Positions 4,225-53,815 of a DNA stretch of 64,000 nucleotides are shown here, piece after piece; the first letter of the stretch is position 1, and every line of letters begins with the position of its first letter. The stretch lies in IMG/VR virus record IMGVR_UViG_3300028840_006907, positions 1 through 64,000 of that record. One strand, given 5' to 3'. A model generated the notes under the pieces. The model saw nothing but the letters and a program-made list of their open reading frames with translations. It was not told the DNA's origin and did not search any database. The position numbers were made by a program, and so were the translations under genes. Source of the stretch: a virus.

Positions 4225-5053
4225 AATCAATTTCTTCCGATAAGAGTAATTTGAAAAATGTTTCAGCCAATTCTTGTTCAAAGAATTTTGGCTCTCGAAT
4301 TTTTATAGTATCAAGCTTTAATAGATCTGCAAATGAATCAATTTTGATATCAATCTCTGGATCTATTAAAGGTTGACACCATTCCATCTCTTTCAACATA
4401 TCTGGTGTGAGAAATGTTTTTGCAATAAAAATATCCCCTAAATCTTCCAGGGCCAAGACTCCCATTCGAATATTTAAATAGCAATAACCATCTTTCATAG
4501 CATATTCTTTATTGCTATTTAAGATTAATCCGACTAGGATATCAGCACTAGTTGGGTCAGTTTTATAAATCCTTTTTAAATCCTCTGTGAGGGGGCTGTA
4601 TGCCCTTGGATCCACTCGTTCTTCTAGTCGCTCAATGCAGTGTGAGGTGACGAAGATATTCCCACAGGAGCCCCTATTCGGGCTCCCATACAATATCCCG
4701 CTATTTTTTATTTTATATACTCTATTGAAGTTAGTTTGGTAGGAAGCATTCCCTACACCTTTGAATTTTATATTGGTTAAGTTTATCCAGCGACCATATT
4801 TAGATCTTAATTTTTGTAGGATTTTTTCTTTTATGGCTTTTTGTTTTCGTTGAGGAATTCTTTTTTTCTGGTAATTTTTTCCACATATTTCATCGAATGT
4901 GCGGGACCAGATGATACTTATCATTGCATCTGGATGTTCTTCGAACGTTGATACGTTATCTTTACCGAAATGTTTTTTTAAAAGTTTTAGGTAATAATTT
5001 TCTTCTTCTTTGCCGTATTTGCTTACTATCCATTGAGAGGGATTCTTTTTCAC
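4217..5053 (-). CDS. hypothetical protein
   Basis: 278-aa ORF overlapping SpoVG-like gene stop by 4 nt. Confidence 0.5.
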   Translation of the reverse strand: MKKNPSQWIVSKYGKEEENYYLKLLKKHFGKDNVSTFEEHPDAMISIIWSRTFDEICGKNYQKKRIPQRKQKAIKEKILQKLRSKYGRWINLTNIKFKGVGNASYQTNFNRVYKIKNSGILYGSPNRGSCGNIFVTSHCIERLEERVDPRAYSPLTEDLKRIYKTDPTSADILVGLILNSNKEYAMKDGYCYLNIRMGVLALEDLGDIFIAKTFLTPDMLKEMEWCQPLIDPEIDIKIDSFADLLKLDTIKIREPKFFEQELAETFFKLLLSEEIDYE

Positions 5054-5307
5054 TTGTTTAGCTCCGCTTCGTATTCATCTAATACGGCATTTTCAATAAG
5101 TATTCTGGTTTCATTTTGTATTGGATGTACCATATCTACAATTTTACCAGTTTTTGTTTTTCTGCTTGGCATTGCTACAAAGTGCCCTTGCGCTCCTTCA
5201 ATAATTTTCAATCCTCGGACAATAAAGCAATCATCAAGAACAATATCAACAAAAGCTCTTACATTTCTGCTTCTATGCATTGTTACTTTTATTTCAGTAA
5301 TTTCCAA
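5050..5307 (-). CDS. spoVG: SpoVG-family nucleic-acid-binding protein
   Basis: MEITEIKV...FVAMPSRKT...HPIQNETR matches the conserved SpoVG core along its length. Confidence 0.85.
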   Translation of the reverse strand: MEITEIKVTMHRSRNVRAFVDIVLDDCFIVRGLKIIEGAQGHFVAMPSRKTKTGKIVDMVHPIQNETRILIENAVLDEYEAELNK

Positions 5308-5352
5308 TTTTTGCCTCCTTAAATACAGAGCAAATATTACTACGAAATGAGA

Positions 5353-12355: not shown

Positions 12356-13540
12356 TTATCCTCTTACATAATCAGTTACACAGTTAATTTCATCATCACT
12401 TATCCAGGCACCGTGATATCGTTCAGGTTCAGAAGCACCAGGATAAATCATTAACATATCTCCCTTACCGGCCAGAGCTTCAGCTCCATTGCAATCAAGA
12501 ATAACTCTGGAATCATTTTTGGATGATACTTGGAATGAGATCCTTGAAGGCATATTGGATTTAATAAGACCAGTGATAACTTTAACGATAGGCTTTTGAG
12601 TTGCAAGTACCAGATGGATACCTACTGCTCTGGCTAATTGAGCCAACCGTACGATCATTTTCTCAAGTTCTTTACCTGAAGTCATCATAAGATCAGCCAT
12701 CTCATCAACCACAGTTACTATATAAGGAAGTTTTGTATCGGAATTTTTATTAAAACTTTCGATATTTCTTACTCGATAATCAGCTAAGAGTTTATATCTA
12801 CGATCCATTTCTTCAATTAAATCTGAGAACACATGCACCGCTTCTGAGGGCTCGGTAACCACAGGGCATCTCAGGTGGGATAAATTATTATATGACGCCA
12901 TTTCCACTCTCTTGGGATCGACAAGGACAAGCTGGCATTCATCTGGTGTTCGAGTAAATAATATTGAAAGAAGAATACTATTTATACATACAGATTTACC
13001 TGATCCAGTTTGACCTGCGATTAAAAGATGAGGCATAGTAGTCAAATCGATTATTTTTGGATTACCAATAGTATCGGTTCCAAGTACGATGGGAATCTTG
13101 GTATTGGAATCAGTGGTAAAGATATCACGGAAACCGATAATGGATCTTGTTTCATTCATCATTTCTATTCCAACACAAGCTGTACCTGGAATGGGTGCTT
13201 GGATTCTGATATTGGATGACATTAAAGCCATTGCGATATCTTCAGTGATCTTTTTAATCTGAGCAATCCTTACACCTTTTGATAATTTCAGTTCATATCG
13301 GGTAACCACTGGGCCATGTTTAATATCCTGGACAGCAGTATCGAATCCAAGTTCAGCGATCCTGTTTTCAAGATCATGAGAGCTTAAACTGTTGGGTATT
13401 CTATTGGATGAATACTCGTTTAAGAGTCCTAAATGAGGTTTTCTATATCTTTTGTTTTTCTTCTTTTTACATGCATCTTCCTCGGAATTAAGGAGTTGCA
13501 TTACATTTAAGAGCTTTCTGAATTTTGTTGATTTGTTCAT
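12356..13540 (-). CDS. FtsK/SpoIIIE-family DNA translocase motor (alpha/beta domains only)
   Basis: GPVVTRYEL, APIPGT..VGIE, Walker A GQTGSGKS, Walker B VVDEMADLMM; no N-terminal TM or gamma domain. Confidence 0.8.
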   Translation of the reverse strand: MNKSTKFRKLLNVMQLLNSEEDACKKKKNKRYRKPHLGLLNEYSSNRIPNSLSSHDLENRIAELGFDTAVQDIKHGPVVTRYELKLSKGVRIAQIKKITEDIAMALMSSNIRIQAPIPGTACVGIEMMNETRSIIGFRDIFTTDSNTKIPIVLGTDTIGNPKIIDLTTMPHLLIAGQTGSGKSVCINSILLSILFTRTPDECQLVLVDPKRVEMASYNNLSHLRCPVVTEPSEAVHVFSDLIEEMDRRYKLLADYRVRNIESFNKNSDTKLPYIVTVVDEMADLMMTSGKELEKMIVRLAQLARAVGIHLVLATQKPIVKVITGLIKSNMPSRISFQVSSKNDSRVILDCNGAEALAGKGDMLMIYPGASEPERYHGAWISDDEINCVTDYVRG

Positions 13541-13556
13541 AATTCCTCCACAATAT

Positions 13557-13571
13557 ATTATACGAGATCTC
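13557..13571 (-). promoter_or_regulatory. GAGATCTC palindrome fused to TATAAT box upstream of FtsK-like gene
   Basis: Minus strand reads GAGATCTCGTATAAT, then GGAGG and ATG at 13540. Confidence 0.4.
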
Positions 13572-13698
13572 TTAAAGAGATTCCAGGTTTTTCTTGGGGC
13601 AGAAGTCTATTTTCTTTTATATCAAACCTTTACAAGAGAAAAAATTAAATTAATAATCTTTTGATATTATTGCCTTTGTTTACAAAGAAAGGGTTATA

Positions 13699-14712
13699 AT
13701 GAAATATTTAATTTCTCATCAGATAAAAGTGTTGGCGAATTGTTTAGAGAACTATAAAGAGGTATGGGATATAGTTCCTATAATGATGCGGATCTCTTTT
13801 GAGAATCCCAAATTAAGTATGAAAGAGATTCAGGTTAAAAGTAAGATGGAAAATTATGGGAATCTTTTTTCAAGAATAATGGCAGATTTAAAAACTGCTC
13901 AGGAAAAGAATATTGTTTTCAAAAGACCTCATAAAGTTTTTAAGCAAGCGGATGATTTGCTTGTGTTATTTAATAAGTTGACAGGTAAAAAAGAAACCAC
14001 AAGTGAGAGTTCTGAAAATGAGTTATTAGATATTGTTAATATCCTTTCTGAAAATGTCAAACCTTTATCAAAAAGACCAAAGTGGGAAATTGAAAATCTT
14101 AAGGTCATGGATGATATCGATGCCTTAATGAAGAAGTTTCCTTTTACCATTCAAACGGTATTGCAACGCTCCATAAAAAGGAAAGAAGAAATAGAGCAGG
14201 AATTGGGAAAAGGTGTCACAGCAAAAAGAGAAATAAAAGTGTATCTCGATATGGATAGTTGTATCACCGACTGTGACAAGGCTATCAGGAAGCTAGGACC
14301 GAAAGTTGCCAAAGGTTTAGCAGATGATGCTTCCGAGGAAGAGAAGCAATACATGTATGATAAGATTGAAGAGAAGGGGGCTGAGTTCTGGTCTGAAATG
14401 GAATGGATGCCCAAAGGTGAAGAGCTTTGGAAAGTGGTAAAGAAATATGATCCTGTTTTGCTGTCCTCACCAGGATTATTTAAATGGGCTCCTGGTGGAA
14501 AGAAAAATTGGGTAGATAAAAATATTCCAGGAACAACTTTGTATCTTGATATTGACAAATATCAATGGGCTGAACCCGACTCAGTTCTCATCGATGATCG
14601 GGTTTCAAATATAGAGAGTTGGAAAGAGGCCGGTGGTGAAGCCATCCTTTATGAAAATGATCCAGAACTCGTTAAATTAAAACTAAAAGAGATCATCAGT
14701 CAACCGGGGTAA
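13699..14712 (+). CDS. protein with C-terminal HAD-like 5'(3')-deoxyribonucleotidase-type domain
   Basis: YLDMDSCI (DxD-type) and C-terminal VLIDDRVSNIESWKEAGGEAILYEND; only long plus-strand gene in the left arm. Confidence 0.45.
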   Translation: MKYLISHQIKVLANCLENYKEVWDIVPIMMRISFENPKLSMKEIQVKSKMENYGNLFSRIMADLKTAQEKNIVFKRPHKVFKQADDLLVLFNKLTGKKETTSESSENELLDIVNILSENVKPLSKRPKWEIENLKVMDDIDALMKKFPFTIQTVLQRSIKRKEEIEQELGKGVTAKREIKVYLDMDSCITDCDKAIRKLGPKVAKGLADDASEEEKQYMYDKIEEKGAEFWSEMEWMPKGEELWKVVKKYDPVLLSSPGLFKWAPGGKKNWVDKNIPGTTLYLDIDKYQWAEPDSVLIDDRVSNIESWKEAGGEAILYENDPELVKLKLKEIISQPG

Positions 14713-14935
14713 CTTTTTTATCTGCAAAACCTTCTACTTTGTAATGAACTAGAACTCGTGCAAGTTGTGTCGCGCTAACGATTTCAAATGTTAGATTTGC
14801 ATCTTTAATTTTATTCCACACTCTTTGCATTGCAGCACATTCTTCTTCATTTGGTTCTTCAGGAATAAAAAAGTATCCTTTTTGTTTTTTTCTTTTCCAC
14901 CAGAAAAATAAATCTAATAACCACATAATAACCAT
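14696..14935 (-). CDS. hypothetical protein
   Basis: 79-aa ORF, convergent overlap with 13699-14712. Confidence 0.35.
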   Translation of the reverse strand: MVIMWLLDLFFWWKRKKQKGYFFIPEEPNEEECAAMQRVWNKIKDANLTFEIVSATQLARVLVHYKVEGFADKKVTPVD

Positions 14936-15269: not shown

Positions 15270-17330
15270 TTATTCCACAGTGCGAACAAGTAAATATTTA
15301 GCTCCATTATATGTTGGAAAGTATGAATAATAATTTCCTCTATTGAAGAAACTTTCGGTCATAGTAAATTTTACCATTGGATCAATTACTGATGGACCAG
15401 TATAATCAGTTTGTGATTCACCTGGAATCGCATTTTCATATTTATCATTCAATCTGATCTCTCCCAGGACCACTACACCATTATTAAATGCGTAATGGAA
15501 TTCAGCTTCAGTAGAAATTCGGAATCCATTCTTGGTCAGATCCATTTGAATATCCAAACTATCAGTATAAGTATAAGCTGTATCCAATCCAGCACCTTTT
15601 GATTTCTCGTTACAGTATTTTATTGCTTCAAAGTAATTACCTAAACTGTAGGTAGTAGTATCAAACCAGAAATCATAACTGAAACTGACATCGATAGGAG
15701 GTAAAGGAAACCAATGATATTGGTATACATTATTCTGTAATTTACCGAACATGGTAGATTGATTTTTCGATTTTATCTTATACTCACCATTAAATAGGAA
15801 AAGAACTTTAAGTGTAACAGTATCCAAAGCAGTATTACCATCATCATCGGTAACCCGAAGGACACATTCAATAACAGAATCTGAGTTCATTGGAATAACA
15901 TATTCATATTTACTGGTATCTGTAGCAGATTCATCTGTAACAAATGTTCCGGTATTCCCAATGTCCCATTCCCATTTTACAATGTGACCATAGCCATCTG
16001 TGGCAGTACCATGAAGAATAACTGTATCTCCTACAACAATCATAGAGTCACTGTTATTAACGAGGAAAGAAGGTCTGCACTGTCCTTCAACAAAGGTACT
16101 CGCTATAGGCTCATCTTTGACCACTGTAACAGTTATTTGATCTGAAGATGTGTTACCATCATTATCAGTAACTCGAACCACATAGACCATATCACCATTT
16201 CTTTGTCCGGTGACATCGGGAACAATCACTGAGGTGTCACCTGTGCTTGTTTCTTTAAATCCTTCACCATTAATATCCAGTTCCCATTTTGAGATTCCTC
16301 TGCTACCGATAGGGTCAGTGGCAATACAGGTAATATGGATTGTATCATAGATACTAACAGTAGTATCATTTCCTATAATCTGTACTTCTGGTTTTGCATT
16401 TTCTGCACTAAAGGGAGGAATTTCAATATCACCAGCTATACTATTGAAAAGAATATTTGGACTTTGACCGATAAGTTTATCTTGGTTATTAAATACATCC
16501 ACATACACATTATATTTATTTGTACCTACAGAATAAATGAAGTAAACGAAACCACTATAGGTATTACTGGAAGTATTATGCCAGAGTTCAGCGGTCTTGG
16601 TACCATTGATATCATCACCAGTAATATTGGCTTGGATAAGGCTGATTGTATCAGGGAAAAACATAGGTAAGTATAAGTTTCCATAGATATCTCTCTGTAT
16701 GACAAACAGATCCGGTAGGGTATCAATCCATTCACTGATATTGGTAGTAGAGAGTACTTGGTTATCTTTAATCAGATTTAGAGTATCATTAATATCATCT
16801 TGTGATAATCTAGCAAAGACACCACCACTGATTGTGGCATTGTCCCCGATCCGGGTTAAACTTGGTTTACCTCTATCATAGAGACTTGGTGATTTAAAGT
16901 TATGTACTTTATTGCCAATCTTTAATTGAACGATATACATTTGTGCTGATAAACCAGTGGCAGGATTAATTGAATAGTTACCAGGATCAAGTTTTCGGTT
17001 TAAAGCAGTGAAGACATTTTGACCACTCAGATTATATACCTTAATAGAAACCTGAGTTTTCTTAAGAACCGGGAACCAGAGTCGAGAGTTATCATATTTA
17101 ATTGTATTAAGGGATACTGAAGATTGGTTTTTAATATCATTGGAAAGTTTTGATAAGATATAGATACCATCAGCACCGGTAGTATCAGAAATACCTTGTC
17201 CTTTTAATGTCGCAATAACGCCAAACATCGGACTGTTATTGTTGTCCAGAACCTTACCTGTAATATATAAGTCCTGGGCATTAACTGTAATTAATAAAAA
17301 TAAAACGATAAGAATAAAAGATTTGTACAT
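15270..17330 (-). CDS. secreted multi-domain protein with CarboxypepD_reg-like and PKD-like repeats
   Basis: Signal peptide MYKSFILIVLFLLITVNA; GKVLDNNNSPMFGVIATLKGQGISDTTGADGIYIL; two VRVTD(N/D)DGNT PKD-like units. Confidence 0.7.
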   Translation of the reverse strand: MYKSFILIVLFLLITVNAQDLYITGKVLDNNNSPMFGVIATLKGQGISDTTGADGIYILSKLSNDIKNQSSVSLNTIKYDNSRLWFPVLKKTQVSIKVYNLSGQNVFTALNRKLDPGNYSINPATGLSAQMYIVQLKIGNKVHNFKSPSLYDRGKPSLTRIGDNATISGGVFARLSQDDINDTLNLIKDNQVLSTTNISEWIDTLPDLFVIQRDIYGNLYLPMFFPDTISLIQANITGDDINGTKTAELWHNTSSNTYSGFVYFIYSVGTNKYNVYVDVFNNQDKLIGQSPNILFNSIAGDIEIPPFSAENAKPEVQIIGNDTTVSIYDTIHITCIATDPIGSRGISKWELDINGEGFKETSTGDTSVIVPDVTGQRNGDMVYVVRVTDNDGNTSSDQITVTVVKDEPIASTFVEGQCRPSFLVNNSDSMIVVGDTVILHGTATDGYGHIVKWEWDIGNTGTFVTDESATDTSKYEYVIPMNSDSVIECVLRVTDDDGNTALDTVTLKVLFLFNGEYKIKSKNQSTMFGKLQNNVYQYHWFPLPPIDVSFSYDFWFDTTTYSLGNYFEAIKYCNEKSKGAGLDTAYTYTDSLDIQMDLTKNGFRISTEAEFHYAFNNGVVVLGEIRLNDKYENAIPGESQTDYTGPSVIDPMVKFTMTESFFNRGNYYSYFPTYNGAKYLLVRTVE

Positions 17331-20973: not shown

Positions 20974-21882
20974 TCAATACTTCGACTGATTACATCCATG
21001 ATTAAATTTGTATTCATTTAATTCATCATTGGACATATGTCCATGTTTCTTGATCGTTTCTTCTAAAATCTGAGGTAATAACTTTTCACCCCAAACTCCC
21101 ATGTTCGGGACAATCTCTCCTCTTGAATTTTTGGATTTGGTAGGGTCTCCTTCAAGAGCATTGGCTCTGATTTTATTTCGTTCCAGTAGCTCCCATTCCT
21201 CATAGTCCTCACGATAAAATCTGTACAACCATAAAAGTTCGATCTCACTCATGAAAGGACATAATAAACAGTTCGATGGATAAGGCACATGCAAGCCCGT
21301 AGAGGCCATGTAATCCTGGCAATCCTTTCTATCCATTCCCATCTCTATGAGTGGATAGATAACCTCTATGGCTTTCTCCTGCCATTTTGGGCGCTCACCC
21401 TTGTTAACACGTTTTTCTTCTCCTTTGGCAATACCGATAAGCATATTGATTTTATCATATGTTTCAGCAAATTGTTTCAATCCTTTCTTTCTTCCTGATT
21501 TAAATCCATATTCTTTTTGAATCCAGTATTCGAGATATTTATATATAGGTCTCAATTTAAGTCTTTCGGTACAAGTTTTGGGAAAACATTTGCTTCCAAT
21601 TCTATTTTTTGTTTTATAGAAAAATCTTAATGTTTGCCAGTCGGGAGAGTGGAATCCCATGTCGTTTGTAAGATGAACAAATTCTACTACATTTTGAGAA
21701 CAGAATTCCTTTATAAATTGTATATGTTTATAGGTATGGGGATGCTCATCACCAGTATCGGCCATGATCACCAAAAGCCGTCCTGGTGCATATTTTTTTC
21801 TGAAATTGTTATCGAGGGCGTACTTGTAAAGTAAAGTGGTGCTGTCTTGTCCGCCCCCGTAACTTAAGACCGTAAGTTCCAT
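20974..21882 (-). CDS. PAPS-reductase/ATP-sulfurylase-like (adenine-nucleotide alpha-hydrolase) protein
   Basis: N-terminal LSYGGGQDSTTLL PP-loop variant of SGGxDS. Confidence 0.65.
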   Translation of the reverse strand: MELTVLSYGGGQDSTTLLYKYALDNNFRKKYAPGRLLVIMADTGDEHPHTYKHIQFIKEFCSQNVVEFVHLTNDMGFHSPDWQTLRFFYKTKNRIGSKCFPKTCTERLKLRPIYKYLEYWIQKEYGFKSGRKKGLKQFAETYDKINMLIGIAKGEEKRVNKGERPKWQEKAIEVIYPLIEMGMDRKDCQDYMASTGLHVPYPSNCLLCPFMSEIELLWLYRFYREDYEEWELLERNKIRANALEGDPTKSKNSRGEIVPNMGVWGEKLLPQILEETIKKHGHMSNDELNEYKFNHGCNQSKY

Positions 21883-22707: not shown

Positions 22708-23279
22708 TTCTCCAATTGTACCAAAATTCTCACCAAGTCACTTTTAGTGAAAGTGACATTACCTACTATAAGTTTTCCCCTTTTTATTTGATAAGGGAGA
22801 GAAATATCTGCTGATTCTTTTTGTGAAGTTTCAATAGCTTTGGTAGTTTTAAGGGATTCAATATAAGCTCTTTGTTCTGATCGATTACGAATATGGTCAG
22901 AAGCAAAAACTTGTTTTACTTGATCTGGTTGAAGATTATGTATACTTACTTTCAACACATCATTATTTGGTAATAAAACATCTAGAGGTTCTTCTACATA
23001 TTTAGATTGTTCTGCAAAAGAACATTTTCCAAGTTTCTTTGCCCCTGTTGTAAGATTAGTGAGGAGTTTTACATGAAGAGAACCTCTTCCTACAGATTCA
23101 AACCTGCGCCATGCAGTAGAGGAAATATCAGGATAGGCTTCTTGAAAATCGTATATTGCATCTGGATTGTCATCTATTGTTTTAACATATAGCTTACATG
23201 CTTTTAAAAGATATCCAATACCTTTTGTAAATAACTCTCCAAATTTATTAATTGCTGTTTCTTGAATATTATTTTTCAT
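22704..23279 (-). CDS. hypothetical protein
   Basis: 191-aa ORF, 4-nt overlap with downstream gene. Confidence 0.5.
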   Translation of the reverse strand: MKNNIQETAINKFGELFTKGIGYLLKACKLYVKTIDDNPDAIYDFQEAYPDISSTAWRRFESVGRGSLHVKLLTNLTTGAKKLGKCSFAEQSKYVEEPLDVLLPNNDVLKVSIHNLQPDQVKQVFASDHIRNRSEQRAYIESLKTTKAIETSQKESADISLPYQIKRGKLIVGNVTFTKSDLVRILVQLEK

Positions 23280-23499
23280 TTATTGTACCTTCTAAAGAAA
23301 TATGTGAATTGAATCCTTTAGAGAAATATTGTGCTGGGTTAAATTTAAAAATTGCTATTCCTCCTATTGCCACAAGAAAAATAAAGAGAATGATTCTCCC
23401 GATCTTTCTTGGCAATTCTTTTCTTCGACGTTTAGCCATAAAATCTTTTTCATTTATTTTCATTATTATCCTCATTATTATCCTCATTATTATCCTCAT
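23269..23499 (-). CDS. small membrane protein with N-terminal (MRII)n repeat
   Basis: 12-nt tandem repeat encodes MRIIMRIIMRIIM; then basic stretch and TM helix; start set to first ATG. Confidence 0.35.
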   Translation of the reverse strand: MRIIMRIIMRIIMKINEKDFMAKRRRKELPRKIGRIILFIFLVAIGGIAIFKFNPAQYFSKGFNSHISLEGTINEK

Positions 23500-23508
23500 T
23501 ATTATTAA
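23461..23508. repeat. 12-bp tandem repeat, about 4 copies
   Basis: cattattatcct x3 plus one degenerate copy. Confidence 0.9.
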
Positions 23509-23708
23509 TCGCACTTTACATGGTAATTTAAGAATGATGCTTCATCCCATTTTTTTCCATTGTCTAATACAACTATATCACCTTCCCGTTCAATGACGGG
23601 AGGTTCAATAGCAACGACAACAACAATATCATTGTCTAATGTGCTTCGATATTTTATTCCAATTTCAATCATATCCTTCCTCCTGGTTAAATGGCATACT
23701 CCATCCAT
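23505..23708 (-). CDS. hypothetical protein
   Basis: 67-aa ORF. Confidence 0.35.
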   Translation of the reverse strand: MDGVCHLTRRKDMIEIGIKYRSTLDNDIVVVVAIEPPVIEREGDIVVLDNGKKWDEASFLNYHVKCD

Positions 23709-24628: not shown

Positions 24629-24827
24629 TTGTTAAGGTTTTAGGATCTTCTTTATCATTCCATACATGGACTAAAACTTTTCCTTGAATATGCTCAATAA
24701 AGATCTGTCCATTACCGTCAGCATCGGTAGGGTTTCCTTTACATCCGGGGATGTTAATCTCAAGACCACCATTGCCCTTATCATTATTCAGATTATTTTT
24801 ATGTATTGTCAGTTTCATTTCACTCAT
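24615..24827 (-). CDS. hypothetical protein
   Basis: 70-aa ORF. Confidence 0.4.
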   Translation of the reverse strand: MSEMKLTIHKNNLNNDKGNGGLEINIPGCKGNPTDADGNGQIFIEHIQGKVLVHVWNDKEDPKTLTIDEE

Positions 24828-24999
24828 AACTATTCCTTATCCGTTAAGGTTTTCTTTTCTTTCTCCGAACGTTTCTTCTCAATCATTTCTTTTATCTTTG
24901 ATTTGGGAACCTGTGATAACAATCTCCTTGCTTCTGAAAAAGAGACACATACTCCTTCATCAACTAAAGTTTTTGCATCCATTTATTGCTCCTTGGTAT

Positions 25000-25269
25000 T
25001 TATATTCCCACTTTATTAAGAACAGCTTTTTCCTCTTCAGTGATCTCTATCCAATTGATCTTTTTGATACCAACTTCACCAGCACAATAGAGATAACTGG
25101 AAGCTTTTTCCATATCATCCTCATCCACGTCATCATAAAAAGTGATGAAATTATCATGAACAATATCTTCATCAGCATCATTTTGATTTCCAGTAAGGAT
25201 AGTGGTTCCATTAAATTCATACTCACCACATCGGACAGTATAACGCACTGCTAAATTTTTATTACTCAT
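25000..25269 (-). CDS. hypothetical protein
   Basis: 89-aa ORF. Confidence 0.45.
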   Translation of the reverse strand: MSNKNLAVRYTVRCGEYEFNGTTILTGNQNDADEDIVHDNFITFYDDVDEDDMEKASSYLYCAGEVGIKKINWIEITEEEKAVLNKVGI

Positions 25270-35238: not shown

Positions 35239-35740
35239 TATATATACCCAATTACCTTTTTTATCCAGTAATATAACATTTTAATACTATCAAATACCAA
35301 CGTCCTATATGGTGCGTCCGTATTAATCTCTATTAAATCAGTCGTCCTATATCTTTAAACTATGGTCTATATAGTAATAAACACGATCTATAAATCAAAT
35401 AACAATTTTAAGGTAATCCTCTTACTCATCAATATCCATATCTTTATAATAAAAAACCCACACATAGCACCTATAAAAATGTGGAACCCTTTAAGGCATT
35501 TCTTAAGTAACTATGTATGGGCACTGAAAGGGATTTATACAAATCCCATTATTATCTTAATATATTAACTTACTATATGTCTATACCTATAAACATATCC
35601 CCCTATATATTACTAATTAGTAATATGAATGTAATTATCCCTATCCCCTATATCTAATAACCTATAAACTATCCATTAAGTATATCTGTATCCTATCCAT
35701 ATAATAACTCTGTAAGAGAAAATTAATATGTATCAGTATG

Positions 35741-35890
35741 CCCATTACCTTGAATAGAATAATGAGTAAGTCAGTACCAGGAACTATACCATCATGAACT
35801 ATGAACTCGGAACTATGTCAGGGAAAACTTGAGTACTTACCCATTACCTTGAATAGAATAATGGGTAAGTCAATACCAGGAACTATGTCG
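35741..35890. repeat. about 48-bp direct repeat x2 (period 99 bp), each with internal inverted repeat
   Basis: cccattaccttgaatagaataatg(a/g)gtaagtca(g/a)taccaggaactat at 35741 and 35840. Confidence 0.85.
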
Positions 35891-36057
35891 GGAATTTCCA
35901 ACGAGTATTTTGAAAAAATTTATTCTCCCTGCAAAACCCGGAACCGATTTCCTAGTTCCTACAATCATATATTAATAATCTTTTGTTATCTGTATAAGTA
36001 AATTTACACAGGGTAATTGACTGATCAAAGTAAGTTAATGTCTTCCCAAACCGAGTC

Positions 36058-36141
36058 TTTGACTTGGGGAAATTGGTTGTTGACTGTAGAGAAGAATAAT
36101 TTCACTTGCTCATTTGGGTATTTGACTTGGGGAAACTGGTT
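36058..36141. repeat. 21-bp direct repeat x2 (period 63 bp)
   Basis: tttgacttggggaaa(t/c)tggtt at 36058 and 36121. Confidence 0.85.
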
Positions 36142-36511
36142 CCCGACTATCAAAAGTGGGGTTAAAAACGAGGGGGGTTACCCCTAAATTTGATATTTCC
36201 AGACTGGGAACTCAGACAGGGGCGATTCCAGACTGTTTCTGGCCAGACTGGGGGAAAGACCTAAGACGGTCTTAGTCCACTCATCCAAGACCATTGCCAT
36301 TTATCTGATCCGTAGCTCCAGACCTGGAATGACTTGGATAGAATTTTATATGTTACTGCCAGACAGAAAATGATCTTTGAGTCTCCACGTCCCAGGATTT
36401 CCTGGACACCGTGTAATCCACGGAACTCTAGGCTATCGGCTGATTTAATTTCGTTCTGAACTTCTATGGGAAGTTCATTCATGTTTATTTGATCTATACT
36501 TGTGATATGCA

Positions 36512-45639: not shown

Positions 45640-45669
45640 ATGGGGTGGTCATCCCCGGATTTACCGGGG
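45640..45669. other. GC-rich structured element: ATGGGGTGG box plus CCCCGG-N5-CCGGGG hairpin (copy 2)
   Basis: atggggtggtcatccccggatttaccgggg; same bipartite element as 20852-20897. Confidence 0.4.
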
Positions 45670-45722
45670 CTGTCTCTGGGAGAATCGATACAAATGGCGG
45701 TGATTTAGACCACTCCATTTTA

Positions 45723-45980
45723 TTAGACATAGATATATTCTATAGCGGAATGTACAAGATAATAGCATCTTTGACCGTCATAAGTACTTTTATAGTACGC
45801 TACATGCCAGTCTTTTTTAATACTAGGGATGCACGTTCCTGTATATCCAAACTGTTCATTGACTTCTTGGAGGGAGACGTGTTTAAAGAAAGTATTGGCT
45901 GTTATCTTTCTTCCGTTATCAGTCATATCGTTAATAAGTTCTGCTGTGCTTGCAACACAGCATGTTAAATATTCATACAT
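45723..45980 (-). CDS. hypothetical protein
   Basis: 85-aa ORF. Confidence 0.45.
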   Translation of the reverse strand: MYEYLTCCVASTAELINDMTDNGRKITANTFFKHVSLQEVNEQFGYTGTCIPSIKKDWHVAYYKSTYDGQRCYYLVHSAIEYIYV

Positions 45981-50908: not shown

Positions 50909-51517
50909 TTAGTTATAGCGAGTTATTCCGTCACTGGATTCAAAATCCATTGCGAGTATGGTATATAATTCCGTTTCCTGTGTATTAATTGTGTCTGGAT
51001 TGACTTGTCTGGAATATCCATCACTGCTTTCAAAATCCATTGCGAGTGAAGCAAATTCATTTGATATGGTTACAAGCGAGTTAACTGGTTGAATTTCAAC
51101 GATTTCAGTCTGGGTTTGGACTTCTTTAATACATTCATCCATTAAACTATTTAGAGTATCTAAGTCGGTAGTTTTTACGAAGGTTTCCCAGTCCTCTTTG
51201 GACATATTAAAATATTCTCGTACGACTTCGAGTTTATCTATATCTGTTATAGTTTTTACTTTGTTCCCGTTTTGCCAAATACTTTTAGCTTTATTAGTAT
51301 ATATAATCTCGCCTGTAAAGTTATGGTTGAAATTTAACCAGCGAGTCTCGTTATTTACTGACGGGTCAATGACTTCAGCGAGTTTATTACCAAAACGGTT
51401 TATACGATAACGGCCAGTACATTGAACGTTTATCCATTCACGAATTGTTTTTCTTGCGGTTTGGTTTGTGCCATTAATAACAGCACCAATTAATTTATCG
51501 TTCATTAGTATAGACAT
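50909..51517 (-). CDS. hypothetical protein with duplicated C-terminal LAMDFESSDG motif
   Basis: First gene of the leftward array next to the control hub; about 35-nt DNA direct repeat inside its 3' end. Confidence 0.5.
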   Translation of the reverse strand: MSILMNDKLIGAVINGTNQTARKTIREWINVQCTGRYRINRFGNKLAEVIDPSVNNETRWLNFNHNFTGEIIYTNKAKSIWQNGNKVKTITDIDKLEVVREYFNMSKEDWETFVKTTDLDTLNSLMDECIKEVQTQTEIVEIQPVNSLVTISNEFASLAMDFESSDGYSRQVNPDTINTQETELYTILAMDFESSDGITRYN

Positions 51518-51572: not shown

Positions 51573-51940
51573 CATGAATAATGAAAAAAGTTTAGTAACT
51601 TTCCGAAGTTTTAAGAAACTTTTTCTTTGACGTTTGTTTTTTGTGGCTTTCATGAGTAATGAAAAAAGTTTAGTAACTTTCCGAAGTTTTAAAAATTTTT
51701 TCTTTCATGTAAACTTTTCCTTGTCTACATGAGTAATGAAAAAAGTTTAGTAACTTTCCGAAGTTTTAAAAATTTTTTCTTTCATGTAAACTTTTCCTTG
51801 TCTACATGAGTAATGAAATTAGTTTGGTAACTTTCCGAAGTTTTAAAAATTTTTTCTTTCATGTAAACTTTTCCTTGTCTACATGAGTAATGAAATTAGT
51901 TTGGTAACTTTCCGGAAAAAATTGTAAAAACGCTATTTTC
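51573..51940. repeat. 77-bp tandem direct repeats, about 4.4 copies
   Basis: Units begin at 51573 (degenerate), 51651, 51728, 51805, 51882 (partial). Confidence 0.95.
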
Positions 51941-52312
51941 CTTTATATAGGGGAGAGCCAGAAATCGCCCGTTTGATGTGCGTGATATATACGCCCGAAA
52001 ATGTTCCCGGTTCTAACCCCCCAGTGAAATACCCTTTCCACAAAAGTGAAATACCCCAATACAACTATACCATACCCGACCATACCCCACCCCCGGGACC
52101 TGTCTTCGGGATCATCATCATGCGCTTGCTTTTCGTGCGCTCAATGCCATACCCACCCCCTTTTTGTAAAGATTTTTGGAAGTTGGAAATGGATGGAGTT
52201 AGATTGGATTTTTTGGATGGTAGAAAATTTTGGCTGGTGGGAGAGACCCCACAGTAAAGTACCCGGTTGGTTCAGGGAAGTACCAATATGGTTCAGTGGA
52301 GTGTCTTTTTTG

Positions 52313-52370
52313 TGGCGCATATCCTGTTATAGTGGCGCATATTCTATTATAATGGCGCATATTTCAGTTC
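52313..52370. repeat. three direct GTGGCGCATAT boxes at about 20-bp spacing
   Basis: gtggcgcatatcctgttata / gtggcgcatattctattata / atggcgcatatttcagttca. Confidence 0.9.
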
Positions 52371-52397
52371 AAAGCTCTCAGAACCCAGTTCAAAGAA

Positions 52398-52628
52398 CAG
52401 GGAACAGGGAACTGAGCACAGGGAACTGAGCACAGGGAACCGAGCACAGGGAACCGAGCACAGGGAACTGAGCACAGGGAACTGAGCACAGGGAACTGAG
52501 CACAGGGAACCGAGCACAGGGAACCGAGCACAGGGAACTGAGCACAGGGAACCGAGCACAGGGAACTGAGAACAGGGAACCGAGCACAGGGAACTGAGAA
52601 CAGGGAACTGAGAACAGGGAACCGAGCA
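52398..52628. repeat. 14-bp tandem repeat array, 16 copies, GC-rich
   Basis: CAGGGAAC(T/C)GAGCA with T/C and C/A variants; partial copy then units from 52405. Confidence 0.95.
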
Positions 52629-52872
52629 CCTGTATCTGTGATCTCGGAAAAGTTTCGGGAAAAAAATCGGGAACGGCTCAGGGCTGAGAAATAGGTATGA
52701 ATTTTTTTGGGGTATAATTTTTGGAGTTAAACAGTTGGGGAAATTGGAGTTATCTTATGTGAGGTGATGGGATAGTTTATGGAGGGTGAAAATTTTTTGG
52801 TATAGTTTGATGGAGAAACAGGTATAATACTTATAGGACGGAAAAATTTAAGTCTAATGGTTCGAGGATCTT

Positions 52873-53095: not shown

Positions 53096-53815
53096 ATGAA
53101 CAATAAGATGTATTTAAACAGTTTTATAGATGCATTGAAGGTTTTATCAGTAGGGACTCTTGATAATTATAAGGAGGAGTTTACTGTGGGATTACCTTTG
53201 GACCCGGAGATATTTAAGGAGGTCATACGGAATGGAGTTATGGCTATTCGTGATGGGTCTCATTTTTTTCTTCGTGACATTAAGAAGGTTCGGATTAGGG
53301 ATATGCCGAATGAGTTGCATGAGATTCCAGATCTTTTCACGATATCTTATAAGGCTGATGTTTTTAATGATGAGTTAGTGAAGGAGGATGTTGAGGCTCA
53401 TACTTTGGTGGTTCGTAGATTATCAGATTTGGCATATTCTGTTGTATTGTGGGCATCTCAGGATTTGGAGGTATGGCAACCTATACCTATTTATAATGTT
53501 GTAAATTTTGATGCTGACTTTAATGTTGAAGATGGGGCGTTGCCTTATAGTTATTGGGCGCATGAGTGTTTTTTAAATGGTCAGGGTGATATGATGATTC
53601 GCCAATTACCGTTTGAGAAATTGAATGAAGATCAGGTTGAATATTTAAATCAAACTTATTTATTCCCGATTTTATTTGAGTTATTTCTTGGATTTTGGAA
53701 CAAGTATCCCAGGCTTAGCTTTAAGGATCAGGTTTTACGAAATCGGACGTTGGTACATGATGAGGAGGGTGATGTTTTTTCATTGGATTGGATAAAATAC
53801 AAGGAGATAGTATGA
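53096..53815 (+). CDS. hypothetical protein
   Basis: 239-aa ORF. Confidence 0.55.
   Translation: MNNKMYLNSFIDALKVLSVGTLDNYKEEFTVGLPLDPEIFKEVIRNGVMAIRDGSHFFLRDIKKVRIRDMPNELHEIPDLFTISYKADVFNDELVKEDVEAHTLVVRRLSDLAYSVVLWASQDLEVWQPIPIYNVVNFDADFNVEDGALPYSYWAHECFLNGQGDMMIRQLPFEKLNEDQVEYLNQTYLFPILFELFLGFWNKYPRLSFKDQVLRNRTLVHDEEGDVFSLDWIKYKEIV

What the first reader, a model, noticed from the sequence alone, without database searches (positions are those of the whole stretch)
13699..14712. Single opposite-strand gene encoding a HAD-like nucleotidase-type domain
This is the only substantial rightward gene inside the 51-kb leftward array, with its own divergent intergenic region (13541-13698). The C-terminal half resembles 5'(3')-deoxyribonucleotidases (DMD motif, LIDDR), fused to an unknown 160-aa N-terminal domain. 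It could alter dNMP pools or remove a modified nucleotide.
Basis: partly seen in the sequence, partly recalled or inferred. Interest (0 to 1): 0.4.

Follow-up and report, generated by a model that had tools for sequence, protein, structure and literature searches.

The report
Phage nucleotidase fused to orphan domain
This is a real, lone opposite-strand gene in a huge, probably viral DNA element; it encodes an ordinary-looking nucleotide-dephosphorylating enzyme joined to a small helical domain found in almost no other protein, a modest new variant rather than a new kind of system.

Summary
ORF 13699..14712 (+), 337 aa, is a real gene. It is the only + strand ORF in the ~51-kb leftward array with coding-like codon usage.

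**C-terminal half (residues 180-337).** This is a HAD phosphatase of the NT5C / 5'(3')-deoxyribonucleotidase lineage. All catalytic positions are invariant in 63/63 relatives: D184, D186, K268, K287, D299, D300, plus S/T at 256. It matches phrog_2643 at E 2e-18. A family profile hits human mdN/cdN at E 1e-17 to 1e-13. The best structural match of the AlphaFold model is the NT5C-like protein 3bwv. It fails Pfam's NT5C threshold and lacks the mdN cap loop, so its substrate cannot be transferred from mdN.

**N-terminal half (residues 1-170).** This is a confidently modelled seven-helix domain with no Pfam, PDB or BFVD relative. Only five 50%-identity clusters carry it among 1.84 billion proteins. 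No polar residue is conserved across all its forms.

**Link between the halves.** In relatives the N-domain is a separate ORF directly upstream of the nucleotidase gene. This fusion/fission pattern argues the two work together.

**Placement.** The opposite-strand position beside an FtsK-like gene is conserved in every close relative with enough context.

**Verdict.** A new variant of a known kind. Interest is low to moderate. Substrate and biological role remain untested.

The parts
13541..13698 (.). 158-bp divergent intergenic region between the FtsK-like gene (-) and the nucleotidase gene (+). It presumably holds both promoters. An AAAGGG Shine-Dalgarno-like element lies 5 nt upstream of the ATG.
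   Evidence: The sigma-70-like matches are no more frequent than in shuffled sequence. Only the last ~25 nt (TTTACAA-GAAAGGGTT-A-ATG) are conserved with L002.
13699..14712 (+). Complete gene, 337 codons plus TAA. It encodes a two-domain protein: an orphan helical domain followed by an NT5C-type HAD phosphatase.
13699..14208 (+). N-terminal orphan domain, residues 1-170, made of seven alpha-helices (H2-17, 19-35, 41-69, 79-95, 108-124, 131-144, 147-170).
   Evidence: AF2 pLDDT is about 90-98 in the full-length model and 83 for the domain modelled alone. There is no PDB or BFVD fold match and no Pfam family. Only 5 clusters carry it among 1.84e9 representatives.
14209..14235 (+). Charged linker, residues 171-179 (KGVTAKREI), with the lowest pLDDT in the model (73-85).
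   Evidence: Gene fission occurs at this position in relatives L005 and L007.
14236..14709 (+). HAD/NT5C-like phosphatase domain, residues 180-337: a Rossmann-like core with a short helical C1 cap (about residues 192-248).
14248..14262 (+). HAD motif I, D184-M-D186-S-C188. By homology D184 is the nucleophile and D186 the general acid/base.
   Evidence: Both aspartates are invariant in 63/63. They align to mdN D41/D43.
14464..14469 (+). HAD motif II, S256-S257.
   Evidence: S or T at position 256 in 63/63. It aligns to mdN T130/S131.
14500..14502 (+). Conserved lysine K268 (motif III region).
   Evidence: Invariant in 63/63. It aligns to mdN K143.
14557..14559 (+). HAD motif III lysine, K287.
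   Evidence: Invariant in 63/63. It aligns to mdN K165.
14593..14598 (+). HAD motif IV, D299-D300 within LIDDR, the Mg2+ ligands by homology.
   Evidence: Invariant in 63/63. It aligns to mdN D175/D176.
14696..14712 (.). 17-nt convergent overlap between the 3' end of this gene and the 3' end of the leftward 79-aa ORF 14696..14935. No terminator lies between them.
   Evidence: The same 17-nt overlap occurs in L002 and in L039/L040.
12356..13540 (-). Divergently transcribed FtsK/SpoIIIE-like ATPase. It is the conserved syntenic neighbour, not part of the protein.
   Evidence: Pfam FtsK_SpoIIIE at E 1.5e-54. It is adjacent or close in L002, L003, L005 and L041/L042.

Best explanation
The gene encodes a two-domain enzyme.

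**C-terminal domain (residues 180-337).** It is an active, Mg2+-dependent HAD phosphatase of the NT5C (5'(3')-deoxyribonucleotidase) lineage.
- D184 attacks the phosphate of a small mononucleotide-type substrate to form an aspartyl-phosphate intermediate.
- D186 acts as general acid/base.
- S256, K268 and K287 hold the phosphate.
- D299 and D300 hold the metal.
- The product is a nucleoside plus inorganic phosphate.

In an infected cell this would drain one or more (deoxy)nucleoside monophosphates from the pool. Characterised precedents are the PBS1 dTMP phosphatase and, by analogy only, T5 Dmp.

**N-terminal domain (residues 1-170).** This seven-helix domain is non-catalytic. It is an accessory partner specific to this small clade of huge mobile elements and is made either fused to the phosphatase or as a separate, translationally coupled upstream protein. 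It most likely tunes the enzyme through substrate gating over the short cap, oligomerisation, or recruitment to a partner.

**Transcription.** The gene forms its own transcription unit, on the opposite strand to all its neighbours. That arrangement is conserved, which suggests expression timing distinct from the surrounding array.

**Shown here:** the gene is real; the fold and family; the intact catalytic residues; the rarity of the N-domain; fusion and fission of the two halves; the conserved orientation.

**Inferred, not shown:** catalysis, substrate class, the role of the N-domain, and timing of expression.
For: **Family assignment**
- phrog_2643 at E 2e-18.
- tblastn finds 35% identity to annotated phage 5'-nucleotidases.
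- A profile search reaches 168 proteins, most carrying PF06941.
- The A2 profile hits mdN/cdN/3bwv at E 1e-17 to 1e-13 with the motifs aligned.
- The AF2 model has pLDDT 94.5. Its best PDB match is 3bwv (TM 0.67 on the target), followed only by C1-capped HAD phosphatases.

**Catalytic residues**
- D184, D186, K268, K287, D299 and D300 are invariant in 63/63, and position 256 is S or T in 63/63.

**N-domain is non-catalytic and an orphan**
- No polar residue is invariant across 11 N-domains.
- There is no Pfam, PDB or BFVD match.
- Only 5 clusters carry it in 1.84e9 proteins.

**Functional coupling of the two halves**
- They are fused in the window, P0002-P0007 and P0128.
- In L005 the two ORFs overlap by ATGA. 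That upstream ORF is 35% identical to P0129 at E 5e-15, and P0129 itself matches the N-domain profile at E 2e-4 against the whole library.
- In L007 the two ORFs are adjacent.
- In L006 a GIY-YIG endonuclease gene separates them.

**Conserved orientation**
-.

**Precedents**
- The PBS1 Dtm of family PF06941 is a dTMP phosphatase (PMC12697855).
- T5 Dmp depletes dNMPs and blocks Kongming defence (bioRxiv 10.1101/2024.12.20.629578).
Against: - The single sequence scores only 16 bits on Pfam NT5C, below the cut-off of 24.8.
- The profile of the close subfamily alone (A1) does not reach any PDB nucleotidase at E < 1.
- The cap is about 12-16 residues shorter than in mdN and lacks the loop carrying mdN W76/S78.
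- The window protein has Cys192 where 51 of 63 relatives have Phe. From my own knowledge of mdN, this is the position of base-stacking F49. Substrate specificity therefore cannot be transferred.
- No partner nucleotide-metabolism gene (thymidylate synthase, dNMP kinase, deaminase, dUTPase) was detected in the 64-kb window.
- Distant relatives sit with a P-loop kinase and an HxGH nucleotidyltransferase, or are fused to one. This hints that parts of the family may handle other mononucleotides.
- Nothing was assayed.
Confidence: 0.62

Rival explanations
1. The HAD domain is active, but its physiological substrate is not a canonical dNMP. It could be another small mononucleotide or phosphoester, such as NMN or NaMN, a ribonucleotide, a 3'- or 2'-phosphate, a modified dNMP, or a signalling-nucleotide precursor. 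The role would then be NAD or nucleotide salvage, or anti-defence, rather than reshaping the dNMP pool.
For: - The mdN base-recognition loop is absent and position 192 is Cys rather than Phe.
- The cap of the close subfamily is very strongly conserved, with lysines at 194, 198 and 202 that are not conserved in the wider family.
- Many more distant family members are fused to a cytidylyltransferase-like domain (PF01467) or NTP_transf_2 (PF01909).
- In 13 of 18 IMG/VR loci a neighbour is a Zeta_toxin-like P-loop kinase, and the gene in between carries an HxGH nucleotidyltransferase motif.
- A phage dNMP phosphatase acting as an anti-defence factor has a precedent.
Against: - Those contexts belong to relatives at 39% identity or less. 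None of these partner genes has a detectable homologue in the window (tblastn).
- There is no PADLOC hit.
- All characterised members nearest in sequence and structure (mdN, cdN, PBS1 Dtm) are deoxyribonucleotidases.
Confidence: 0.25
2. The protein is a macromolecular end-processing phosphatase, removing 3'- or 5'-phosphates from DNA or RNA in the manner of the T4 PNKP phosphatase domain. It would work with the adjacent FtsK-like DNA translocase, and the helical N-domain would bind nucleic acid.
For: - Adjacency to the FtsK-like gene is conserved.
- The cap of the close subfamily is lysine-rich.
- HAD phosphatases of phages include PNK-type enzymes. T5 Dmp itself falls in a PHROG labelled 'polynucleotide kinase'.
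Against: - The model retains a C1 helical cap over the active site (helices within residues 192-248). By established knowledge of HAD cap types, such a cap restricts access to small molecules.
- The nearest relatives are mononucleotidases, not PNKP.
- T5 Dmp / phrog_415 is not detectably related beyond motif IV (hhalign probability 18%).
- The two genes are divergently transcribed, not co-transcribed.
- The N-domain shows no match to any nucleic-acid-binding fold.
Confidence: 0.06
3. The gene is a decaying or non-functional passenger: a pseudo-enzyme, or a selfish insertion that happens to lie on the other strand.
For: - The gene is on the opposite strand to everything around it.
- The locus attracts homing endonucleases in relatives.
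- The window protein carries an unusual F-to-C change at position 192.
Against: - All catalytic residues are invariant.
- Codon usage is that of a well-adapted resident gene.
- Position, orientation and even the 17-nt 3' overlap are conserved down to 45% protein identity.
- The identical protein is seen on 7 contigs.
Confidence: 0.03

Closest known systems
Human mitochondrial and cytosolic 5'(3')-deoxyribonucleotidases (mdN/NT5M, cdN/NT5C; PDB 1mh9, 4mum, 2i7d; Pfam PF06941)
   Same: Same HAD core. Motif I is of the DMDG/S-V/C-L/I-A/T-D type. Motif II is S/T-S-P. Both lysines and the LIDDR motif IV align. Both have a C1 helical cap and are Mg2+ phosphomonoesterases by homology.
   Different: - Identity is low.
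- The single sequence is below Pfam's threshold.
- The cap is shorter and lacks the mdN loop with W76/S78.
- Residue 192 is Cys rather than Phe.
- It carries an extra 170-aa N-terminal helical domain that no NT5C enzyme in the PDB has.
Staphylococcus epidermidis deoxyribonucleotidase-like protein NP_764060 (PDB 3bwv)
   Same: This is the best structural match of the model (Foldseek E 2e-4, TM 0.67 normalised to the target) and a strong profile hit (E 4.7e-16). Its size (about 170-180 aa) is similar to the HAD domain.
   Different: It is a single-domain bacterial protein with no described activity, and identity is about 20%.
Phage NT5C-like nucleotidases (phrog_2643; for example the Flavobacterium phage vB_FspM_immuto '5' nucleotidase', Caulobacter phiCbK-like phages, Pseudomonas phage pf16)
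   Same: These are the closest annotated viral relatives: 28-35% identity over residues ~172-326 and a PHROG match at E 2e-18.
   Different: They are stand-alone proteins of about 160-190 aa without the N-domain. None of those listed has been assayed, as far as the records show.
Bacillus phage PBS1 dTMP phosphatase Dtm (PF06941)
   Same: It is an experimentally characterised phage member of the same Pfam family, which removes dTMP so that dU-DNA can be made (PMC12697855). It is the best functional precedent for a phage enzyme of this family reshaping the dNMP pool.
   Different: It was not detected by tblastn at E <= 1e-3 and is single-domain. There is no evidence that this element has modified DNA.
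Phage T5 deoxynucleoside-5'-monophosphatase Dmp
   Same: It is a HAD-type, Mg2+-dependent dNMP phosphatase encoded by a phage, with a demonstrated pool-clearing and anti-Kongming role. The resemblance is functional only.
   Different: It belongs to a different HAD family. T5 Dmp falls in phrog_415 and not phrog_2643, and it aligns to this family's profile only around motif IV (probability 18%).

Membership tests
HAD superfamily phosphatase | Motif I DxDx(T/V), carrying the nucleophile Asp and the Asp+2 acid/base | tested here: met
   The window has D184-M-D186-S-C188. Both Asp are invariant in 63/63. The fifth position is Cys in the close subfamily and Val in 51/63.
HAD superfamily phosphatase | Motif II Ser/Thr, motif III Lys and motif IV acidic pair (DD) | tested here: met
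   Position 256 is S or T in 63/63. K268, K287, D299 and D300 are invariant in 63/63. They align to the corresponding mdN residues.
HAD superfamily phosphatase | Rossmann-like core fold with a cap insertion | tested here: met
   The AF2 model has pLDDT 94.5 and shows alternating strand and helix from residue 180, with helices 192-248 inserted after motif I. All of the top 50 Foldseek PDB hits are HAD proteins.
NT5C / 5'(3')-deoxyribonucleotidase (Pfam PF06941) | Score at or above Pfam's gathering threshold | tested here: not met
   16.0 bits against a cut-off of 24.8, E 0.012, covering only profile positions 52-151.
NT5C / 5'(3')-deoxyribonucleotidase (Pfam PF06941) | Significant profile-level homology to solved mdN/cdN structures | tested here: met
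   The A2 profile (63 sequences) hits 4mum, 1mh9, 3bwv and 2i7d at E 1e-17 to 4e-13. Many intermediate homologues carry PF06941. Caveat: the profile of the 10 closest sequences alone (A1) does not reach them, so the link runs through intermediates.
NT5C / 5'(3')-deoxyribonucleotidase (Pfam PF06941) | Cap residues that bind the (deoxy)nucleoside in mdN: F49, F102 and the W76/S78 loop (residue roles from my own knowledge of the mdN structures) | tested here: inconclusive
   F102 corresponds to W231, so an aromatic is kept. F49 corresponds to C192 in the window but to F in 51/63 relatives. The loop with W76/S78 has no counterpart.
NT5C / 5'(3')-deoxyribonucleotidase (Pfam PF06941) | Mg2+-dependent dephosphorylation of 5'- (and 3'-) dNMPs | not testable with these tools
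   This needs an enzyme assay.
PHROG phrog_2643 (phage 5'-3' deoxyribonucleotidase) | Significant match to the family HMM over most of its length | tested here: met
   E 2.2e-18, residues 176-325 against profile positions 4-163 of 182. Relatives L005, P0128 and L006 behave the same way.
T5 Dmp-type deoxynucleoside-5'-monophosphatase (phrog_415) | Sequence or profile homology to T5 Dmp | tested here: not met
   T5 Dmp matches phrog_415 and not phrog_2643. hhalign against A2 gives probability 18% over 32 columns around motif IV only.
Known anti-phage defence proteins (PADLOC-DB) | Match to any defence-system model | tested here: not met
   No family at E <= 0.01.

The most novel reading that the evidence does not exclude
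The orphan helical domain and the NT5C-like phosphatase form a dedicated two-component enzyme. It is fused in some huge elements and made as two translationally coupled subunits in others. The helical partner would redefine what the phosphatase acts on. For example, it could close over the unusually short, lysine-rich cap to select a non-canonical or modified nucleotide, or a defence-signalling precursor. This would give the clade a new nucleotide-pool or anti-defence function, expressed from its own conserved opposite-strand unit.
Probability: 0.15. Interest if true: 0.6.

Novelty: new variant of a known kind. Interest (0 to 1): 0.3.

Why it matters
Phage-encoded nucleotidases are now known to do decisive things. 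The PBS1 enzyme enables fully dU-substituted DNA (PMC12697855). T5 Dmp disarms the Kongming defence system by removing dAMP (bioRxiv 10.1101/2024.12.20.629578).

A clade-specific version with an obligate helical partner domain would extend this in three ways:
- It would show how HAD nucleotidases acquire new specificity or regulation.
- It would give a function to an orphan fold.
- It could flag nucleotide-pool manipulation in a group of very large, uncultivated elements.

If the enzyme simply hydrolyses ordinary dNMPs, this is a routine auxiliary metabolic gene with an unusual appendage.

Tried and rejected
**Identifying the N-domain**
- Single-sequence search against PDB sequences gave only noise, E > 0.2.
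- The A1 (close subfamily) profile against PDB hit only helical or coiled-coil noise on the N-domain, such as de novo four-helix bundles and haemagglutinin HA2, and no nucleotidase. I rejected these as low-complexity helical matches.
- NCBIfam gave nothing meaningful.
- Foldseek of the N-domain against PDB and BFVD gave a best E of 0.27-0.8 and mostly low TM-scores (0.37 at best, for a hit at E 3.1). No assignment was possible.
- I considered a MazG-like or HD-like all-alpha hydrolase. I rejected this because no acidic or His motif is conserved and there is no structural hit.
- Pfam on 11 N-domains: no family was hit by more than one member.
- I tested whether the C-terminal helical extension seen in L006 and P0010 is a displaced N-domain. 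It is not (hhalign probability 0.2%).

**Identifying the source element**
- megablast of 25 kb against phage genomes gave no match.
- IMG/VR holds only relatives at 39% identity or less.
- GTDB genomes hold only 30%-identical spirochaete hits.
- No paper mentions the sample.
- No phage hallmark gene was found within the window, so 'huge phage' remains an inference from gene content and the 469,617-bp contig length.

**Regulatory signals**
- Promoter and terminator scans and an upstream-region alignment showed nothing above chance beyond the RBS-proximal 25 nt shared with the closest relative.
- The palindrome CTCTTAAAGAG upstream of the gene is not a recurrent motif.
- Rfam gave no hits.

**Literature**
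- Searches for mdN active-site residue numbering in open-access text found nothing. Those residue roles rest on my own knowledge.

**Other rightward ORFs**
- ORFs such as 24751..25254, 5033..5350, 23252..23596 and 45645..45968 were rejected as shadow ORFs.
Full report
**1. The observation**

The window contains an ATG-initiated ORF at 13699..14712 on the + strand, 337 aa. I trained a codon-usage log-odds model on 37 long ORFs of the window.
- This ORF scores 0.375 bits per codon. The leftward genes average 0.30 with SD 0.09.
- Its antisense frames score at most -0.285.
- Every other + strand ORF of at least 60 aa between 1 and 51600 scores 0.17 or less. Most lie antisense to a better-scoring leftward gene.
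- The largest alternative, 24751..25254, translates to low-complexity hydrophobic sequence over three small leftward ORFs.

This is the only credible rightward gene in the leftward array. It is separated from the leftward FtsK-like gene (12356..13540) by a 158-bp divergent spacer. Both quoted motifs are present: DMD at residues 184-186 and LIDDR at 297-301.

**2. Source of the window**

- The identical protein is recorded on 7 contigs, the longest 469,617 bp.
- The window has about 32% G+C and no tRNA genes.
- Most ORFs have no Pfam or PHROG annotation.
- The recognisable genes are typical of large phages and other mobile elements: FtsK/SpoIIIE-like ATPase, AAA ATPase, N6/N4 DNA methylase, DUF932, DUF3150, a PAPS-reductase/SspD-like protein, GP88 and DUF2997.
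- No hallmark virion gene lies within these 64 kb.
- The element is absent from the phage, IMG/VR and GTDB collections searched.

'Huge phage' is therefore an inference, not a demonstration.

**3. The C-terminal half is an NT5C-type HAD phosphatase**

Sequence evidence:
- Residues 176-325 match phrog_2643 ('5'-3' deoxyribonucleotidase') at E 2e-18.
- tblastn finds annotated phage 5'-nucleotidases at up to 35% identity, always over residues ~170-326 only.
- Pfam NT5C is hit only weakly: 16 bits against a cut-off of 24.8.
- A profile of the ten closest homologues retrieves 168 proteins. Most are stand-alone proteins of 160-190 aa carrying PF06941.
- A 63-sequence alignment of these (A2) hits the crystal structures of human mitochondrial and cytosolic 5'(3')-deoxyribonucleotidases and the S. 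epidermidis homologue 3bwv at E 1e-17 to 4e-13. All four HAD motifs are in register.
- The narrower A1 profile does not reach them, so the link runs through intermediate sequences.

Conservation in A2:
- D184, D186, K268, W271, K287, L297, D299, D300 and G313 are invariant in 63/63.
- Position 256 is always Ser or Thr.

Alignment to mdN through the A2 HMM gives these equivalences (the roles of the mdN residues come from my own knowledge of the mdN structures):

| Window residue | mdN residue |
|---|---|
| D184 / D186 | D41 / D43 |
| S256 / S257 | T130 / S131 |
| K268 | K143 |
| K287 | K165 |
| D299 / D300 | D175 / D176 |

Structural evidence:
- AlphaFold2 with this alignment gives mean pLDDT 94.5. 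The model has a Rossmann-like core from residue 180 and a short helical cap at about 192-248.
- Foldseek against the PDB ranks 3bwv first (E 2e-4, TM 0.67 on the target). Only capped HAD phosphatases follow.

**4. What cannot be transferred from mdN**

- The cap is shorter than in mdN, and the mdN loop carrying W76/S78 has no counterpart.
- The window protein alone has Cys at position 192, where 51 of 63 relatives have Phe.
- The cap of the close subfamily is very strongly conserved. It contains lysines at 194, 198 and 202 that the wider family lacks.

The enzyme class, a small-molecule phosphomonoesterase of the nucleotidase lineage, is well supported. The exact substrate is not.

**5. The N-terminal half is an orphan helical domain that travels with the phosphatase**

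Structure and relatives:
- Residues 1-170 are modelled as seven helices. pLDDT is 90-98 within the full-length model and 83 when the domain is modelled alone from seven sequences.
- Foldseek finds nothing in the PDB or in BFVD. The best E-values are 0.8 and 0.27, and TM-scores are mostly low, 0.37 at best.
- Pfam scans of 11 versions of the domain give no family hit by more than one member.
- An HMM of the domain searched against 1.84 billion cluster representatives finds five clusters only.

Two of those five are stand-alone proteins:
- P0127 (179 aa) is followed on its contig by an overlapping ORF that is the HAD domain.
- P0129 (149 aa) is followed by a GIY-YIG/NUMOD3 homing-endonuclease gene and then by the HAD gene.

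A third split case is locus L005:
- The 175-aa HAD protein P0017 is preceded by a 156-aa ORF whose stop overlaps its start (ATGA).
- That ORF begins MKKLISSYIKKFAESILNAY, compared with MKYLISHQIKVLANCLENY in the window.
- It is 35% identical to P0129 at E 5e-15.
- It aligns colinearly with the N-domain profile (hhalign E 6e-4).

The two halves thus occur fused, or as adjacent translationally coupled genes. This is classic evidence that they function together.

Across the 11 N-domains no polar residue is invariant; only M1, I5, P37, L87 and L94 are. This argues against a second catalytic site and for a structural, regulatory or binding role. The N-domain also evolves faster than the HAD domain: 31-55% identity to the window, against 45-61% identity over the whole protein in the search.

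**6. Conserved placement**

In every close relative with enough flanking sequence, the gene or the split pair is on the strand opposite to nearly all flanking genes, and wherever the flank extends far enough an FtsK-like gene lies next to it or close by. This holds for L002, L003, L005 and L041/L042; in L039/L040 the upstream ORF is cut by the contig end and is not identified.
- The downstream neighbours recur: two small ORFs, a large CarboxypepD_reg-like secreted protein (with a PKD domain as well in the window) and an HTH protein.
- Even the 17-nt convergent overlap of the 3' ends recurs, in L002 and L039/L040.
- No terminator-like site separates the convergent genes.

More distant HAD-only relatives in IMG/VR (39% identity or less) are arranged differently. 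They are co-directional with their neighbours. In 13 of 18 loci a neighbour is a Zeta_toxin-like P-loop kinase. The gene in between carries an HxGH nucleotidyltransferase motif. None of these partners has a detectable homologue in the window.

**7. Most likely mechanism**

- Shown: an intact HAD/NT5C catalytic apparatus under a C1-type cap.
- Inferred from established HAD chemistry: Mg2+-dependent phosphoryl transfer through an aspartyl-phosphate on D184, releasing a nucleoside and phosphate from a mononucleotide.
- Inferred from precedents: the enzyme changes the nucleotide pool of the infected cell.

Two precedents support the last point:
- The PBS1 Dtm, a PF06941 member, removes dTMP so that dU-DNA is made (PMC12697855).
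- T5 Dmp clears dNMPs and thereby blocks the Kongming defence (bioRxiv 10.1101/2024.12.20.629578).

T5 Dmp belongs to a different HAD family: phrog_415, with hhalign probability 18% against A2. That comparison is therefore one of function, not membership.

The N-domain is inferred to be a non-catalytic partner that gates, regulates, oligomerises or localises the enzyme. The conserved separate transcription unit suggests distinct timing of expression. Confidence in this overall picture is about 0.6. Confidence that the protein is an active HAD phosphatase is higher, about 0.85. Confidence in canonical dNMPs as substrate is lower, about 0.45.

**8. Rivals**

| Rival | Confidence | Main point for or against |
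|---|---|---|
| Different small substrate (NMN or other mononucleotides, modified dNMPs, signalling precursors) | about 0.25 | Favoured by the divergent cap and by the nucleotidyltransferase and kinase associations of distant relatives |
| Polynucleotide-end phosphatase working with the FtsK-like protein | about 0.06 | Disfavoured by the retained cap and by the nearest relatives being mononucleotidases |
| Decaying passenger gene | about 0.03 | Contradicted by invariant catalytic residues, resident codon usage and conserved synteny |

There is no PADLOC match.

**9. Novelty and interest**

NT5C-like nucleotidases are common auxiliary genes of phages, so the catalytic half is a new member of a known kind. 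Three features are new:
- the architecture, with an orphan seven-helix domain that is either fused or encoded as a coupled upstream gene;
- its restriction to a handful of clusters worldwide;
- the conserved opposite-strand placement.

This makes the finding a new variant of a known kind. A specialist would find it mildly interesting rather than surprising, so I score interest at 0.3. The most novel reading still allowed is that the helical partner redefines substrate choice and gives a new pool-manipulating or anti-defence activity. I put that at about 0.15 probability and 0.6 interest if true.

Noticed in passing
window 51573-52629: Three tandem-repeat arrays lie in the ~1.5-kb gap where gene orientation flips. 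They are 77 bp x 4.4 at 51573-51914, 20 bp x 2.5 at 52313-52363, and the 14-bp unit ACAGGGAACTGAGC x 16 at 52404-52629. Leftward genes end at 51517 and rightward genes start at 53096. GC skew switches there from about -0.1 to +0.3. This is a candidate replication origin with iterons.
   Followed up: partly
window ~35240-36260: About 1 kb has no credible ORF on either strand. The 34-36 kb interval has a strong C-over-G skew (-0.435). The region contains internal repeats: a ~45-nt unit 'cccattaccttgaatagaataatgRgtaagtcaRtaccaggaactat' at ~35741 and ~35841, and 'tttgacttggggaaaYtggtt' twice near 36060-36140. There is no Rfam match. It could be a non-coding RNA or a regulatory or packaging region.
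   Followed up: partly
L006:487-1446; P0010 (residues ~165-290): The nucleotidase locus attracts homing endonucleases in relatives. In L006 a GIY-YIG/NUMOD3 gene sits between the N-domain ORF and the HAD ORF. In P0010 an HNH_3 domain is inserted in frame between the HAD domain and a helical C-terminal extension.
   Followed up: partly
L006:1416-2513; P0010 C-terminus: Some relatives carry a third accessory region: a ~190-aa helical C-terminal extension shared by the L006 protein and P0010 (motifs KDPxxRGL and AEKLxDDGxLLK). It is unrelated to the N-domain (hhalign probability 0.2%) and absent from the window protein.
   Followed up: partly
L008-L036 (IMG/VR loci): Distant HAD-only relatives (32-39% identity) sit in a co-directional operon. 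In 13 of 18 loci a neighbour is a Zeta_toxin-like P-loop kinase. The ~400-aa protein in between carries an N-terminal HxGH nucleotidyltransferase motif and a C-terminal HExxH motif. Other family members are fused to PF01467 or PF01909. This suggests a kinase, nucleotidyltransferase and nucleotidase pathway in those phages.
   Followed up: partly
window 14272-14274 (codon 192): The window protein has Cys (TGT) at position 192, where 51 of 63 relatives, including every other close homologue, have Phe. The identical protein is seen on 7 contigs, so this is not a read error.
   Followed up: partly
window 20974-21882 (-) and 12356-13540 (-): The 302-aa protein matches PAPS-reductase-like phrog_424 (E 3e-29) and PADLOC SspD (E 2e-13). 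The FtsK-like protein matches the C-terminal ATPase part of PADLOC SspH (E 5e-59). This may point to a DndC/SspD-like DNA-modification function in the element.
   Followed up: no
window 15270-17330 (-): A 686-aa protein with an N-terminal signal-like hydrophobic segment, a CarboxypepD_reg-like domain and two PKD-like domains. A CarboxypepD_reg-like protein occupies the same downstream position in relatives L039/L040.
   Followed up: no
window 23460-23505: A perfect 12-bp tandem repeat (TCATTATTATCC x 3.8) lies inside the small leftward ORF 23269..23514, where it encodes the repeated peptide IIMR.
   Followed up: no
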